This document shows, piece by piece, positions 8,891 through 62,755 of a DNA stretch of 64,000 nt. The position numbers were made by a program, and so were the translations under genes. The DNA is from Patescibacteria group bacterium (GTDB taxonomy: Bacteria; Patescibacteriota; Minisyncoccia; Phycocordibacterales; SIBU01): assembly GCA_040390045.1 (NCBI GenBank), contig JAZJZC010000004.1, positions 67,157 to 131,156 on the forward strand, given 5' to 3'. The notes below the pieces were generated by a model. It saw only the letters and a program-made list of their open reading frames with translations. It was not told the DNA's origin and ran no database searches. The stretch's first letter is position 1. Each line of letters begins with the position of its first letter.

Positions 8891-8952
8891 ACCTGCCCGC
8901 TTTACCTGCCGGCAATCGGGCGGCCAAACAGGTTTAAGATTTCAAGAGTCCA

Positions 8953-8979
8953 TTTAACCATTCGCTCGAAAGGTTAAAT
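8953..8979. repeat. 27-bp palindromic element tttaaccattcgctcgaaaggttaaat, solo copy
   Basis: Identical to 26365-26391. Inverted partial copy at 26049-26068. Confidence 0.8.
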
Positions 8980-9124
8980 AGGAATTTATTCTACTATTTA
9001 TGGTAAGGAACCAATAAAAGTTAGATTTTGACATTTTTTACAGAAACGCTAAGCTTCATTTTAGAAAGATACCAAGTGTACTTGGTTTGAAACGAAGTAA
9101 ACAAAACTCAGTAAGGATCACTGT

Positions 9125-15494: not shown

Positions 15495-15529
15495 AATGTT
15501 GCCCCGCCCGCAGCGGGCGGGGCAACATT
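15495..15529. repeat. GC-rich hairpin ccccgcccg-cag-cgggcgggg (member of a repeat family)
   Basis: Perfect hairpin aatgttgccccgcccgcagcgggcggggcaacatt. Related cores at 53278-53319 and 62620-62690. Confidence 0.6.
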
Positions 15530-15910: not shown

Positions 15911-16813
15911 ATGGCTAACAGGCACCTTGCAAGATCGACAGTTCTACAAACCCTCTTCGAGTGGGATTTTAATGGTCAGCGAAAGACTGACGATGTAGAA
16001 ACGATTCTCAAGAGAGATATCGCCGAATTTGCTCCTGGCGTTAGTGATTCGTCGTTCATGACTGAGCTCCTCCGTTCTATTTGCGACAAGATGTCGGACA
16101 TTGATACGATTATTGAAAAGGCTGCTCCAGATTGGCCAATCAATAAAATTTCTATTATCGATCGCAACATCTTGCGCATCGGTCTTTACGAATTGCTTTT
16201 TGCGGACAAAACTGAAGTGCCGGAAAAAGTGGCGATCAATGAAGCGATTGAGTTGGCGAAAACATTCGGCGGCGAAAATAGCGGCAAATTTGTAAACGGC
16301 GTTCTTGGTTCAGTCTACAAAGAACTTGGAGAGCCCGGCAAAGATGCTGTTTCCCAGAAGAGTAAACGCAAAGCTGAAGTTCCGTACGAAAAAATGCCTA
16401 TCCAAAAATTGGGAGGCGCAGTGGTCTATGCTAAGGATGGTGGTGAAATTTATCTCGCGCTTGTCCACGATATTTTCGGTCATTGGACGCTCTCAAAAGG
16501 AAAAATTGAAGTTGATGAGGACGTTAAGCAAGGTACGACGAGAGAAATGAAGGAAGAACTTGGCCTCGATGTTTCGATTCAAACAGATCTTGGAAAAAAT
16601 GAATACATCGCATCCGATCCAACTCTTGGTAAAATTCGCAAACAAGTAAATTACTTTTTGGCAGAAGCCAAGTATGAAAATTTAACTCTTGGTACTTCAG
16701 GTGGACTCGACGACGCACGATGGTACAAAATGGCGGATATTGTTTCTCTTAATTTGTACAATGACATTTTGCCAATCGTCACCAAAGCGGTCAATATATT
16801 ACTTAAAAAGTAG
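15911..16813 (+). CDS. nusB: NusB antitermination factor fused to C-terminal NUDIX hydrolase domain
   Basis: NusB motifs DRNILRIGLYELLF and INEAIELAKTFGGENSGKFVNGVLG. Canonical Nudix box GKIEVDEDVKQGTTREMKEELGL. Confidence 0.8.
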   Translation: MANRHLARSTVLQTLFEWDFNGQRKTDDVETILKRDIAEFAPGVSDSSFMTELLRSICDKMSDIDTIIEKAAPDWPINKISIIDRNILRIGLYELLFADKTEVPEKVAINEAIELAKTFGGENSGKFVNGVLGSVYKELGEPGKDAVSQKSKRKAEVPYEKMPIQKLGGAVVYAKDGGEIYLALVHDIFGHWTLSKGKIEVDEDVKQGTTREMKEELGLDVSIQTDLGKNEYIASDPTLGKIRKQVNYFLAEAKYENLTLGTSGGLDDARWYKMADIVSLNLYNDILPIVTKAVNILLKK

Positions 16814-16894
16814 ATAGTCGGTAGTCAGTAGTTTGTAGAAAATCCGTTTTTCCTTACTACCAACTACCCACTACAATACTAACCTACTACTCCA
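16814..16894. repeat. GTAG/CTAC-rich palindromic intergenic repeat
   Basis: tagatagtcggtagtcagtagtttgtag ... ctaccaactacccactac forms a long imperfect inverted repeat. Same family at 287-320 and 28817-28935. Confidence 0.6.
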
Positions 16895-26045: not shown

Positions 26046-26073
26046 TTGTAACCTTTCGAGCGAATGGTATAAT
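26046..26073 (+). promoter_or_regulatory. sigma70-like promoter of arsR-family gene overlapped by inverted copy of the 27-bp element
   Basis: TTGTAA-16-TATAAT. Element copy taacctttcgagcgaatggt at 26049-26068 sits between -35 and -10. ATG follows 7 nt after -10. Confidence 0.5.
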
Positions 26074-26079
26074 GCTTTG

Positions 26080-26349: not shown

Positions 26350-26364
26350 ACCCAACCTCACTTA

Positions 26365-26391
26365 TTTAACCATTCGCTCGAAAGGTTAAAT
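26365..26391. repeat. 27-bp palindromic element tttaaccattcgctcgaaaggttaaat
   Basis: Identical to 8953-8979. Inverted relative to 26049-26068. Confidence 0.8.
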
Positions 26392-26431
26392 GAGAATAAA
26401 ACAACTTTTTAACTAAATCCGTACTTAATTT

Positions 26432-28816: not shown

Positions 28817-28935
28817 GGGAGAGAGTAGATAGTCGGTAGATGGTAGTAGGTAGACCAGATTAAAGAAACCCCCGGCGCGCTTTGCGCGCCGGGGGTTTCA
28901 ACAAGTCTACCCACTACCCACTAATTACTACTTTC
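28817..28935. repeat. GTAG/CTAC palindromic repeat enclosing a terminator hairpin
   Basis: tagatagtcggtagatggtagtaggtagac ... terminator ... gtctacccactacccactaattactac. Inner hairpin aaacccccggcgcgc-tttg-cgcgccgggggttt at 28866-28898. Confidence 0.7.
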
Positions 28936-53257: not shown

Positions 53258-53345
53258 GGGCCTATAGTTCAGTGGCACCCGCCCGAACGTACCGAAACGG
53301 TAGTTCGGTACGGGCGGGGAACAAGTGGGCATGAGGTAGAGTTTG
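53258..53345 (+). pseudogene. tRNA-Ala 5' fragment duplicate disrupted by a GC-rich hairpin repeat
   Basis: First 18 nt identical to the tRNA-Ala 5' end. Then hairpin cccgcccgaacgtaccgaaacggtagttcggtacgggcgggg (53278-53319), then a decayed anticodon/variable-arm remnant. No T-arm or acceptor 3' strand. Confidence 0.6.
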
Positions 53346-53368
53346 AAATATTATAAAAATTAAAGCAC

Positions 53369-53439
53369 GGGCCTATAGTTCAGTGGTAGAACGCATCCAT
53401 GGCATGGATGAGGTAGGGGTTCGATTCCCCTTAGGTCCA
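53369..53439 (+). tRNA. tRNA-Ala (anticodon GGC)
   Basis: Cloverleaf with G3:U70 identity pair, anticodon loop atGGCat, T-loop ttcgatt. CCA not encoded. Confidence 0.85.
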
Positions 53440-53486
53440 CAAATTTCGGGGACTCAATTTGTGGACCTAAGCAAAGCAACTACTTG

Positions 53487-53640
53487 CTTTGCGGAGGGGA
53501 ATCGAACAGCGGAGTCATGTTTTTTCATCAGAAAAAACGGACGAGCTGGTGCCCAGACAAATTCGAGCGACGGCAAGAATTTAGTCGCGGGCGATTCACC
53601 CATATAGGCGTCAACTTGAAAAAGTGTTACCATTTTAACT
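53487..53640 (+). promoter_or_regulatory. structured leader upstream of TerC-family gene; weak yybP-ykoY (Mn2+) riboswitch-like candidate
   Basis: Several hairpins. GGAGGGGAAUCG, GUCAUG and GGCAAGAAUUUAG loosely echo conserved yybP-ykoY blocks, but GAGAC is absent. The gene context (TerC) is the classical one. Confidence 0.3.
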
Positions 53641-53645
53641 CTCTT

Positions 53646-54578
53646 ATGTCTTTAATTCTCACAATTCTCGGCCTAGCACTTTTTGAAATCATCAACAGCG
53701 TGGATAACGCGGTAATTAACGCTGAAGTCCTTTCAAAAATGAGTCAAAAATCCAGAAAGTGGTTCCTACTTTGGGGAGTTCTGTTGGCCGTTTTTCTTGT
53801 TCGTGGACTTTTGCCCTGGATAATTATTTGGCTCACCAGTGGCGAACTAACACTCTGGCAAGCCCTCGTTGCCACATTAAGTTCCAGTCCTGAAATTCAC
53901 ACATTGATCGAGCAATCGGCCCCGCCACTTCTTGTTGGCTCCGGCATCTTTTTAATTTTTCTTTTTCTTTATTGGTTATTTTTGGAGCAGAAATCTTACG
54001 GACTTATTGGCGAACGATTTATTCACCGTCATGGTCTATGGTTTTATACCGTTGCCTCAATTGTACTGACAATAATCGTGTGGATTTGCATCAAAATCAA
54101 TCCAATAATGGCGCTTGGAGCCGTCATCGGATCAACAGGATTTTTCATGGTCCATGGTTTTAAAGAAAATGCCGAAGCCGCAGAAAAAGAAATGTTGAGC
54201 GGGCAGGGAAATCTTTCTGACTGGTCAAAAATTTTCTACCTTGAGGCCATTGATGCCTGTTTCTCGATCGATGGAGTGCTCGGTGCCTTCGCCTTTACCC
54301 TTTCCGTGCCACTTATTCTTATTGGCAATGGCATCGGAGCTATTGTAGTTCGTCAGCTCACGATCGGTAACATTGATCGCGTCAAACAATTTGTGTTCCT
54401 TAAAAATGGCGCGATGTACTCAATCCTAGTTTTAGGTATCATCATGATCCTCGATTCATTCGGATTTCAAATTCCAACGTGGCTATCTCCGCTCGTCACC
54501 TTTATAATCATCGGCTACTTTTTCTATAAATCTGTTAAGCAAATTTCAAAATTAAATAGCACTGTTCCTTCTCTCTAA
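53646..54578 (+). CDS. TerC-family integral membrane protein
   Basis: Multi-pass TM protein with INSVDNAVINAEVL and SIDGVLGAF TerC-like motifs. Confidence 0.7.
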   Translation: MSLILTILGLALFEIINSVDNAVINAEVLSKMSQKSRKWFLLWGVLLAVFLVRGLLPWIIIWLTSGELTLWQALVATLSSSPEIHTLIEQSAPPLLVGSGIFLIFLFLYWLFLEQKSYGLIGERFIHRHGLWFYTVASIVLTIIVWICIKINPIMALGAVIGSTGFFMVHGFKENAEAAEKEMLSGQGNLSDWSKIFYLEAIDACFSIDGVLGAFAFTLSVPLILIGNGIGAIVVRQLTIGNIDRVKQFVFLKNGAMYSILVLGIIMILDSFGFQIPTWLSPLVTFIIIGYFFYKSVKQISKLNSTVPSL

Positions 54579-54661: not shown

Positions 54662-54700
54662 GGCCCTATCGTCTATCGGCTAGGACACGGCCTTCGAAAG
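54662..54700 (+). pseudogene. tRNA-Glu-like 5' fragment
   Basis: ggccctatcgtctatcggctaggac closely matches the 5' half of tRNA-Glu. The anticodon stem is decayed and no T-arm or acceptor 3' strand follows. Confidence 0.5.
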
Positions 54701-54823
54701 GTGAGCTTGGGATTGGGACCCGAGCGCAAGACCTTGAGCGATCTGTCCTCAGAATGCGAAGGGTGTACAGCTCCTGTAAGGAGGGAAATGCGGGGTGAGT
54801 GTTTTGTGTTAAAATTGAAATTA

Positions 54824-54895
54824 TGGCCCTATCGTCTAACGGTTAGGACGGAGGCTTCTCAAGCCTTAAATCCGGGTTCGATTCCCGGTAGGGTC
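54824..54895 (+). tRNA. tRNA-Glu (anticodon CUC)
   Basis: 72-nt cloverleaf, anticodon loop ttCTCaa, T-loop ttcgatt. Confidence 0.85.
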
Positions 54896-62477: not shown

Positions 62478-62582
62478 AGTTTGTCCTCGTCCTATCCCCG
62501 CCACAGCTAAGGGAACACTTATCCCTCGGAAGACCTCGGCGGGGTGTTAGGCGAGGAACCGGGGCAAACTTTGTTGTAGCAG

Positions 62583-62690
62583 AGTCAGCTCCGCTGACTC
62601 ATGTAGTCGTTGCGGATTCATCCTCGCCCCACCCGCCCGAACGTACCAGAGTACTCTCGGTACGGGCGGGGAGCGGGCGAGGTATTCTCC
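62583..62690. repeat. nested GC-rich palindromes including cccgcccgaacgtacc...ggtacgggcgggg family member
   Basis: Hairpin gagtcagc-tccg-ctgactc, then cctcgccccacccgcccgaacgtaccagagtactctcggtacgggcggggagcgggcgagg. Confidence 0.6.
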
Positions 62691-62755
62691 GCAGTTACAA
62701 TAAAACAAAAGAAAATCCCCCGATTCGCTCCGCGAATCGGGGGATTTTCAGTATT

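What the first reader, a model, noticed from the sequence alone, without database searches (positions are those of the whole stretch)
53258..53345. GC-rich hairpin repeat family (cccgcccg...cgggcggg) including a copy that disrupts a duplicated tRNA-Ala 5' end
Hairpins with the ccccgcccg/cgggcgggg core occur at 15495-15529, 53278-53319 and 62620-62690. The last two share the extended core cccgcccgaacgtacc...ggtacgggcgggg. In this AT-moderate genome these stand out strongly. The 53278 copy sits inside a partial duplicate of tRNA-Ala, 110 bp upstream of the intact gene. That suggests insertion into, or recombination at, a tRNA-derived sequence.
Basis: seen in the sequence. Interest (0 to 1): 0.5.

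Follow-up and report, generated by a model that had tools for sequence, protein, structure and literature searches.

The report
Mobile GC hairpin plugging dead tRNA copy
The hairpin is one copy of a tiny (32-41 nt) GC-rich palindrome found letter-for-letter in very different uncultured bacteria; it sits precisely inside a dead partial copy of tRNA-Ala, an arrangement that elsewhere carries a small GIY-YIG nuclease gene, so it probably marks a so-far undescribed kind of selfish DNA that colonises tRNA genes.

Summary
53278-53318 and 62632-62670 share a 16+12-nt core; 15495-15529 shares only 8 nt and is a plain hairpin. Copy 1 lies exactly between nt 20 and 22 (D-loop) of a decayed tRNA-Ala copy, 51 nt upstream of the live gene.

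A metagenome scan found the same 28 specified bases in more than 120 unrelated contigs (GC 28-59%; CPR and a T9SS-bearing organism). Most carry the 32-mer CCCGCCCGAACGTACCGTTCGGTACGGGCGGG.

In 26 of 125 contexts, removing the hairpin restores a contiguous tRNA 5' fragment. That fragment always lies upstream of the intact cognate tRNA, and the hairpin occurs in either orientation. In about half of these, an ~80-aa GIY-YIG nuclease ORF fills the gap.

Five GIY-YIG homologues chosen by protein similarity alone all showed the same cassette, each with a hairpin of this superfamily at the same D-loop site. Relatives of the window organism have empty sites at both loci.

Best reading: a non-autonomous mobile palindrome tied to tRNA-targeting GIY-YIG cassettes, with the window locus an ORF-less relic. 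Who moves the hairpin, and why, is inferred only. No description was found in the searched literature.

The parts
53258..53277 (+). Dead tRNA-Ala copy, nt 1-20 (acceptor 5' strand, D-stem 5' strand, D-loop); starts exactly at tRNA +1
   Evidence: 19/20 identical to 53369-53388
53278..53318 (.). Hairpin copy 1 (41 nt): CCCGCCCGAACGTACC-GAAACGGTAGTTC-GGTACGGGCGGG, inserted between D-loop A and D-stem G22
   Evidence: DNA fold -16.7 kcal/mol, z = -4.1; similar loop variants (AACGGTAGTTC, TACGGTAGTTC) in L040 and L109
53319..53349 (+). Remainder of the dead tRNA-Ala copy (nt 22 to about 58): 7-nt deletion in the anticodon arm, ATGAGGTAG conserved, T-arm decayed; no acceptor 3' strand
   Evidence: alignment; not called by ARAGORN or Rfam
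53369..53440 (+). Intact tRNA-Ala(GGC)
   Evidence: ARAGORN; Rfam tRNA 68.8 bits
53461..53507 (-). Inverted copy of the tRNA-Ala 3' end (T-arm and acceptor 3' strand), split by an unrelated 20-nt hairpin at 53472-53491
   Evidence: BLAST of the tRNA against the window; sequence; fold
62632..62670 (.). Hairpin copy 2 (39 nt): same arms, loop AGAGTACTCTC; sits in the loop of another hairpin
   Evidence: similar loop variants (AGAGTACGCTC, AGAATACGTTC) in L035 and L055
62622..62682 (.). Host hairpin CCTCGCCC...GGGCGAGG that encloses copy 2
   Evidence: fold -25.4 kcal/mol, z = -5.9
62478..62700 (+). 220-nt cluster of nested GC-rich hairpins between rplU and the shared rplU/recR terminator; lineage-specific insertion
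   Evidence: fold z = -12; relative L149 (L21 90% identical) has a 57-nt spacer holding only the homologous terminator
15495..15529 (.). Separate perfect hairpin sharing only the CCCGCCCG core; not shown to be a family member
54662..54700 (+). Second dead 5' tRNA copy (tRNA-Glu nt 1-39), 163 nt upstream of the intact tRNA-Glu; no hairpin of this family
   Evidence: (D10)

Best explanation
The 53278 and 62632 hairpins are copies of a very small (32-41 nt), non-coding, DNA-level palindromic insertion element. Its core is CCCGCCCGAACGTACC-loop-GGTACGGGCGGG, and it is spread across unrelated uncultured bacteria. It lands, without target duplication and in either orientation, in loop-coding positions of tRNA-like DNA, in loops of other hairpins and in short tandem repeats.

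Copy 1 sits in the D-loop of a leftover 5' fragment of tRNA-Ala. Such leftovers are produced when a ~240-nt cassette encoding an ~80-aa GIY-YIG nuclease enters a tRNA gene near the anticodon loop and brings a replacement 5' part. The result is one live tRNA downstream and a dead 5' fragment upstream. The window locus is the ORF-less relic of such a cassette.

Shown: the precise insertion; empty sites in relatives and paralogues; the recurrent order [tRNA 1-21][hairpin][tRNA 22-~36][GIY-YIG ORF][intact tRNA]; and a hairpin present in every cassette examined.

Inferred: the nuclease cuts conserved tRNA-gene sequence and recombination then duplicates part of the gene, as shown for phage SegB. The hairpin is kept in the leftover because it breaks up the repeated tRNA segment, so the leftover is no longer a nuclease target or a substrate for recombinational loss of the cassette. 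The hairpin is mobilised in trans, most plausibly with the help of the GIY-YIG nuclease.
For: (1) Family and spread. More than 120 metagenome contigs carry the exact 28 specified bases in unrelated flanks. Host GC ranges from 28 to 59%. Hosts include a Peribacteraceae (CPR) contig and a T9SS/FISUMP-bearing organism.

(2) Precise insertion. In 26 of 125 contexts the joined flanks are a contiguous tRNA 5' fragment, 92-100% identical to an intact tRNA in the data set, most often the neighbouring one. The junction is mostly after nt 21-23. L073 has one filled and two empty paralogous sites.

(3) Empty sites in relatives. hisS relatives L145 and L147 have tRNA-Ala(GGC) without the pseudo-copy or hairpin. 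rplU relative L149 lacks the whole hairpin cluster.

(4) Architecture. In all 20 resolvable cases the hairpin-bearing fragment lies upstream of the intact cognate tRNA on the same strand. Ten have spacers of about 245-292 nt and an eleventh 369 nt, and all eleven encode a GIY-YIG ORF (Pfam PF01541, E = 1e-15). Of 28 GIY-YIG matches, 22 lie within 400 nt of a hairpin, usually 18-57 nt away.

(5) Unbiased test. Five GIY-YIG homologues chosen by protein similarity alone all show the cassette, with a hairpin of the CCCGCC(C/A)GAAC superfamily at GGT(T)A|GAGC. Some are nested or multiple.

(6) Mirror-image cassettes carry the hairpin in the T-loop of a 3' leftover.

(7) Precedent. The GIY-YIG homing endonuclease SegB recognises the tRNA T-psi-C motif (PMC2330249). 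It also drives tandem amplification of tRNA-plus-segB segments (PMC13096335).
Against: No GIY-YIG ORF or recognisable remnant exists anywhere in the 64-kb window, so 'relic' rests on analogy with ORF-less short-spacer loci elsewhere.

About three quarters of the hairpin copies are far from any GIY-YIG gene or tRNA.

GIY-YIG nucleases only cut; no strand-transfer activity is known for them, and the 80-aa protein has no DNA-binding domain.

The intact tRNA next to the cassette would remain a target, so the immunity logic is incomplete.

The metagenome sample was selected by exact arms, so sequence conservation is overstated.

The window's dead copy reaches about nt 58, whereas cassette leftovers end near nt 32-37.
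Confidence: 0.55

Rival explanations
1. An independent selfish palindrome of the REP/REPIN or SDR kind, moved by an unidentified enzyme or through an RNA intermediate. Its link to GIY-YIG cassettes is indirect: dead tRNA fragments are the only tRNA-like targets where an insertion is tolerated.
For: About 75% of copies are nowhere near a GIY-YIG gene or tRNA. The window has none. Copies sit in tandem short repeats (15 of 119 with direct-repeat flanks against 3.4 expected) and in loops of other palindromes, as reported for cyanobacterial SDR elements. No hairpin is found in an intact tRNA, which fits purifying selection.
Against: 5 of 5 cassettes found without reference to hairpins carry one at the same D-loop site, several with nested or multiple hairpins. 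That frequency is too high for passive accumulation. No transposase family is enriched among 150 neighbouring ORFs. Copies occur as singlets, not as REPIN doublets.
Confidence: 0.25
2. A cis-acting RNA or transcription element: a leader structure that stabilises, processes or insulates the tRNA-Ala transcript and the rplU 3' UTR.
For: Both copies lie in transcribed-looking intergenic positions. One is between a promoter-like site and a tRNA; the other is between a stop codon and a terminator. Both fold strongly.
Against: The hairpin occurs in both orientations at the same tRNA site. There is no U-tract, and the terminator scan gives no call. No Rfam family matches. It is absent from relatives with the same genes. 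The identical sequence sits in dozens of unrelated contexts and phyla.
Confidence: 0.08
3. An ordinary local tandem duplication of tRNA-Ala, or an integrase att-site scar, followed by decay. The hairpin would be an unrelated later insertion, with no GIY-YIG cassette ever at this locus.
For: The window's dead copy extends to about nt 58, longer than cassette leftovers. No ORF remnant is present. tRNA-Glu has a dead 5' copy without this hairpin.
Against: Both dead copies start exactly at tRNA +1 with unrelated upstream flanks. No integrase is nearby. Integrase scars duplicate 3' parts (own knowledge: Williams 2002). Seven ORF-less short-spacer loci elsewhere have the same layout and grade into full cassettes.
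Confidence: 0.1
4. Chance resemblance among unrelated GC-rich terminator hairpins.
For: True for the 15495 site, which shares only 8-9 nt; most other GC-rich hairpins in the window are A/T-flanked terminators.
Against: 33 shared flank-plus-arm bases between the two main copies. The 16-mer is expected 0.16 times even with 3 mismatches. More than 120 exact external matches exist.
Confidence: 0.02

Closest known systems
REP / REPIN elements with RAYT transposases (PMC3116915)
   Same: Short imperfect palindromes in extragenic DNA, non-autonomous and dispersed. A single protein gene is habitually flanked by copies. Insertions occur into or next to existing copies.
   Different: No Y1/RAYT gene was seen. 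Copies are singlets, not inverted doublets. The same sequence occurs across phyla rather than being species-specific. The associated gene is a GIY-YIG nuclease embedded in a tRNA gene.
Small dispersed repeats SDR4-6 of Nostocaceae (Elhai et al. 2008, Genome Res 18:1484; recalled from memory, paper not held; cited in PMC5861425 and PMC4390886)
   Same: Tens of nucleotides long, hairpin-forming, precisely inserted, nested in one another and embedded in tandem heptamer repeats. Proposed as the smallest mobile elements.
   Different: SDRs are reported as confined to one cyanobacterial lineage, with no tRNA-fragment or nuclease association reported. Sequence relation could not be tested.
SegB, the free-standing GIY-YIG homing endonuclease of T-even phages (PMC2330249, PMC13096335)
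   Same: A GIY-YIG gene lodged among tRNA genes. It recognises conserved tRNA-gene sequence (T-psi-C motif). Its cuts lead to co-conversion and tandem segmental amplification of tRNA plus nuclease units, comparable to the tandem units in L040 and L060.
   Different: SegB is a phage protein described as a site-specific endonuclease recognising a 27-bp site. The cassette protein is ~80 aa, catalytic domain only (nearest solved structures are UPF0213 proteins 1ywl and 1zg2), and chromosomal in CPR. No hairpin partner is described for SegB.
Mobile GC clusters of yeast mitochondrial DNA and Rickettsia palindromic elements (own knowledge)
   Same: GC-rich palindromes of a few tens of nt (GC clusters) in AT-richer genomes. 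They insert into intergenic DNA and structural-RNA genes, are optional between strains, and are linked to double-strand breaks and gene conversion.
   Different: Organellar or single-genus distribution; different sequences; no tRNA-fragment cassette.
Integrase-mediated integration into tRNA genes (own knowledge: Williams 2002)
   Same: The element enters a tRNA gene at a loop sublocation and carries a replacement part, so an intact tRNA survives beside a partial copy.
   Different: Here the 5' part is usually the replaced one. The element is about 0.3 kb and has a nuclease, not an integrase.

Membership tests
Functional tRNA gene (for 53258-53349) | Complete cloverleaf with an acceptor 3' strand, detectable with or without the insert | tested here: not met
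   ARAGORN and Rfam call only 53369-53440. Excising the hairpin from 130 copies never yields a tRNA across the junction. The alignment shows a decayed T-arm and no acceptor 3' strand.
Intrinsic (Rho-independent) terminator | GC-rich stem followed directly by a T-run | tested here: not met
   Nothing is called at 53278-53318. The sequences after the stems are GAACAAG and GAGCGGG. The true rplU/recR terminator lies at about 62707-62750 and is conserved in L149.
REP/REPIN-RAYT | Short imperfect extragenic palindrome, many copies | tested here: met
REP/REPIN-RAYT | Copies organised as inverted doublets (REPINs) | tested here: not met
   115 of 120 loci have one copy. The only inverted pair (L089) is 1.6 kb apart and flanks an Era GTPase gene.
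REP/REPIN-RAYT | A Y1 (RAYT) transposase gene flanked by copies | tested here: inconclusive
   150 neighbouring ORFs of at least 110 aa show no recurrent family. Only the top 25 families are listed, and whole genomes were not available.
SDR elements (Elhai 2008) | Embedded in short tandem repeats; nested insertions | tested here: met
   Direct-repeat flanks in 15 of 119 against 3.4 expected. A hairpin is nested in the hairpin loop in L153, and window copy 2 lies inside another hairpin.
SDR elements (Elhai 2008) | Sequence identity with SDR1-8; confinement to Nostocaceae | not testable with these tools
   The paper and its sequences are not held. The hosts here include CPR and a T9SS organism.
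Free-standing GIY-YIG homing endonuclease cassette (SegB-like) | GIY-YIG catalytic domain ORF next to tRNA genes | tested here: not met
   Not met in the window: no GIY-YIG match, best E = 2. Met in 17 hairpin loci and in 5 of 5 unbiased loci elsewhere.
Free-standing GIY-YIG homing endonuclease cassette (SegB-like) | Site-specific cleavage of the HEG-less allele and preferential inheritance | not testable with these tools
   Needs biochemistry or crosses. Only empty and filled alleles were seen.
Integrative element att scar | Tyrosine or serine recombinase gene adjacent; duplicated 3' tRNA part | tested here: not met
   The neighbours are hisS, a small membrane ORF and DUF475. The duplicated part is the 5' end.

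The most novel reading that the evidence does not exclude
The 32-nt hairpin and the ~80-aa GIY-YIG nuclease form a two-part selfish system comparable to REP/RAYT but built on a different enzyme. A minimal nuclease cassette lives inside tRNA genes. It cuts conserved tRNA-gene or hairpin DNA and thereby spreads itself and its partner palindrome. The palindrome is among the smallest mobile DNAs known and crosses phylum boundaries (CPR, FCB group). The hairpin in the leftover fragment protects the cassette from re-cleavage or recombinational loss.
Probability: 0.35. Interest if true: 0.85.

Novelty: new variant of a known kind. Interest (0 to 1): 0.68.

Why it matters
Stand-alone GIY-YIG proteins of about 80-100 aa (UPF0213-like) are common, and the two nearest solved structures are deposited only as hypothetical UPF0213 proteins. 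A fixed, testable genomic context (tRNA gene, dead fragment, defined hairpin) gives them a concrete hypothesis.

A 32-nt sequence shared exactly by organisms with 28-59% GC would be one of the smallest horizontally spreading DNA elements. It would also be a useful marker of genome plasticity in CPR bacteria, which are thought to have streamlined, repeat-poor genomes.

In practice, these hairpins break assemblies: the Logan contig ends 23 nt after rplU. They also create pseudo-tRNA fragments that can confuse annotation.

Tried and rejected
- Rfam at gathering and permissive thresholds on both loci gave only the two tRNAs and chance-level hits.
- tRNA with an intron or insert is rejected, because excision never restores a tRNA.
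- Synteny through the DUF475 gene failed: relatives lack the tRNAs, so the one genome-collection scan gave only taxonomy.
- The 32-mer has no match in the plasmid or phage collections or in viral contigs.
- Searching papers for the literal sequence, for GIY-YIG with tRNA or CPR, for UPF0213 and for mobile GC hairpins found no description.
- Elhai 2008 could not be read.
- Pfam enrichment among neighbours of at least 110 aa found nothing. This cut-off hid the ~80-aa GIY-YIG ORFs, which were found only by reading the spacers.
- Strict adjacent flank stems of at least 6 bp are not clearly enriched (3 against 0.9), so 'always in hairpin loops' is not supported as a general rule.
- The tRNA-Glu spacer and the rplU hairpin cluster have no homologues among the fetched loci.
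- Taxonomic naming by exact cluster look-up worked for only one contig.
- A k-turn, a group II intron domain V and an archaeal bulge-helix-bulge intron were considered from the sequence and dropped: no GA pairs, no surrounding intron, no consistent flanks.

Full report
**What is in the window**

The window is a chromosome segment of a Patescibacteria (CPR) bacterium. Its HisRS and L21 proteins are 100% identical to proteins of an NCBI MAG named 'Patescibacteria group bacterium'. Around the finding lie hisS (minus strand), a small membrane ORF, tRNA-Ala(GGC) at 53369-53440, a DUF475/TerC gene and tRNA-Glu(CTC).

CCCGCCCG occurs six times, as three hairpins, against 1.1 expected. Only 53278-53318 and 62632-62670 share the long core: the 16-mer CCCGCCCGAACGTACC has just these two matches even with three mismatches, against 0.16 expected. 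They also share two flanking bases on each side. The 15495-15529 hairpin is a perfect 17-bp palindrome behind a terminator and shares only the 8-9 nt core. I do not count it as a member.

**The tRNA context**

53258-53277 is tRNA-Ala nt 1-20 (19/20 identical) and starts exactly at +1. The 41-nt hairpin follows. Then come G22-A-A-C, a shortened anticodon arm, a conserved ATGAGGTAG and a decayed T-arm. There is no acceptor 3' strand. So the hairpin lies precisely between the last D-loop base and the D-stem 3' strand of a dead copy, 51 nt upstream of the live gene.

Two more tRNA scars are nearby. One is an inverted copy of the tRNA-Ala 3' end, split by an unrelated hairpin (53461-53507). The other is a dead 5' copy of tRNA-Glu, 163 nt upstream of that gene.

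**The family outside the window**

Of 130 copies, 96 are 32 nt long, 84 of them the 32-mer CCCGCCCGAACGTACCGTTCGGTACGGGCGGG. Longer-loop variants similar to the two window copies also occur.

Flanks are unrelated and host GC runs from 28 to 59%. One contig clusters with Candidatus Peribacteraceae. Another encodes a T9SS sorting domain and a FISUMP protein. Nothing matches in the plasmid, phage or viral collections.

Neighbouring ORFs of at least 110 aa are ordinary housekeeping genes with no recurrent family. Because the scan required exact arms, the apparent conservation is inflated. Variants with substitutions exist: L060 has a third copy with a substitution, and L152-L156 carry related hairpins.

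**Evidence that it is an insertion**

- In 26 of 125 distinct contexts, joining the flanks gives a contiguous tRNA 5' fragment, 92-100% identical to an intact tRNA in the data set, most often the neighbouring one. The junction is mostly after nt 21-23, with a few at nt 32/36, 8/9, 14 or 57. There is no target duplication, and both orientations occur at the same site.
- Excision never restores a whole tRNA, so the hairpins sit only in dead fragments.
- L073 has one filled and two empty paralogous sites within 2.5 kb.
- L044 and L125 show a filled and an empty copy of another palindromic repeat.
- hisS relatives (76-77% HisRS identity) keep tRNA-Ala(GGC) beside hisS but lack the dead copy and the hairpin.
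- A relative with 90% identical L21 has a 57-nt rplU-recR spacer holding only the shared terminator. The window has 278 nt, of which 220 nt are nested GC-rich hairpins including copy 2.

**The recurrent architecture**

In all 20 loci where it could be resolved, the hairpin-bearing fragment lies upstream of the intact cognate tRNA on the same strand. Spacers fall into two main groups.

Ten are about 245-292 nt and an eleventh is 369 nt. All eleven encode an ~80-aa protein with a GIY-YIG catalytic domain (PF01541, E about 1e-15). Its nearest solved structures are the UPF0213 proteins 1ywl and 1zg2. Its ORF ends at or inside the tRNA.

A profile of these ORFs finds 28 matches in the fetched loci. 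Of these, 22 lie within 400 nt of a hairpin, typically 18-57 nt away. Mirror-image versions exist: intact tRNA, GIY-YIG ORF, then a 3' fragment with the hairpin in its T-loop. Tandem units also occur (L040, L060).

Eight loci, including the window, have short spacers of 17-94 nt and no ORF.

To remove the bias of selecting loci by hairpin, I took five GIY-YIG homologues found by protein similarity alone. All five show [tRNA 1-21][hairpin(s)][tRNA 22-~36][ORF][intact tRNA]. Each has a hairpin of the CCCGCC(C/A)GAAC superfamily at GGT(T)A|GAGC. One has a second hairpin nested in the first, and two have several hairpins.

The window itself has no GIY-YIG trace.

**Mechanism**

Shown: the insertion, the architecture and the association.

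Inferred from precedent: the phage GIY-YIG homing endonuclease SegB recognises the tRNA T-psi-C motif (PMC2330249). Its cuts drive recombination-dependent tandem amplification of tRNA-plus-segB segments (PMC13096335). A similar cut-and-recombine process would explain the partial tRNA duplications and the tandem units.

Why every leftover carries a hairpin is not settled. My preferred reading is that interrupting the roughly 37-nt repeat removes it as a nuclease target and as a substrate for recombinational loss of the cassette. On this reading the palindrome is itself copy-pasted in trans, possibly through the nuclease.

The rival is a wholly independent palindrome that merely accumulates in neutral tRNA-like DNA. 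That fits the roughly 75% of solo copies, but it fits poorly with the 5 of 5 result.

An RNA-level role is unlikely, given both orientations, the absence of a U-tract, no Rfam match and absence from relatives.

**Comparison with known elements, and novelty**

The element behaves like REP/REPIN, cyanobacterial SDR elements or yeast mitochondrial GC clusters. It fails REPIN organisation, no RAYT was seen, and it is not lineage-restricted.

The cassette behaves like a free-standing GIY-YIG homing endonuclease gene. However, its protein is a bare catalytic domain and it resides in bacterial chromosomes.

Searches of the held literature found no description. Absence from that library is not proof of novelty.

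Noticed in passing
window 54662-54824: tRNA-Glu(CTC) has its own dead 5' copy (nt 1-39, starting at +1, 23/25 identical at the start), 163 nt upstream. It is followed by a ~125-nt GC-rich spacer with no hairpin of this family, no GIY-YIG trace and no homologue among the fetched loci.
   Followed up: partly
window 53441-53507: An inverted copy of the tRNA-Ala 3' end is split by an unrelated 20-nt hairpin (caaagcaactacttgctttg, 53472-53491). Together with the tRNA 3' end it can form a long stem that may act as a terminator substitute. Relative L147 also has a hairpin involving the tRNA 3' end.
   Followed up: partly
window 62478-62700: A 220-nt block of nested GC-rich hairpins lies after rplU (fold z = -12), with arms such as CCTCGYCC/RGGCGAGG used twice. 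It is absent from a relative with 90% identical L21. A Logan assembly contig of the same organism breaks 23 nt after rplU.
   Followed up: partly
window 8951-8985, 26049-26074, 26364-26397: Another small hairpin repeat, ATTTAACCATTCGCTCGAAAGGTTAAAT, has two direct copies and one inverted copy at 92-94% identity.
   Followed up: no
window 16809-16839 and 28824-28854: Heptamer-like repeats (AGTAGAT AGTCGGT AGT...GTAGA) lie right after two ORF ends. Similar short tandem repeats host the hairpin in other genomes.
   Followed up: no
window 53637-54578: The DUF475/TerC gene between the two tRNAs has 60-68% identical homologues on contigs labelled DPANN or Methanosarcinales. It is not next to tRNA-Ala in hisS relatives, so the segment may be an acquired islet.
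   Followed up: no
L152, L156, L040, L109 (cassette loci): The GIY-YIG ORF often runs into the tRNA, with its stop codon at tRNA nt 13-15 or later. RNase P cleavage of a co-transcript would therefore leave a non-stop nuclease mRNA, a possible built-in limiter of expression.
   Followed up: no
L063 1300-1560, L105 2480-2560, L132, L035, L109: A second hairpin family (CCYGCCYGAAYGAA...TTCRTTCRGGCRGG) occupies T-loops and D-loops of dead tRNA fragments, sometimes in arrays of four. Several metagenome contexts are also the familiar GTCATTCCGAGG...GGAATC palindromic repeats.
   Followed up: no
L075 and L144: In a T9SS-bearing organism the hairpin is embedded in a larger ~120-nt repeat present behind five different genes in 12.7 kb, all in one orientation.
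   Followed up: partly
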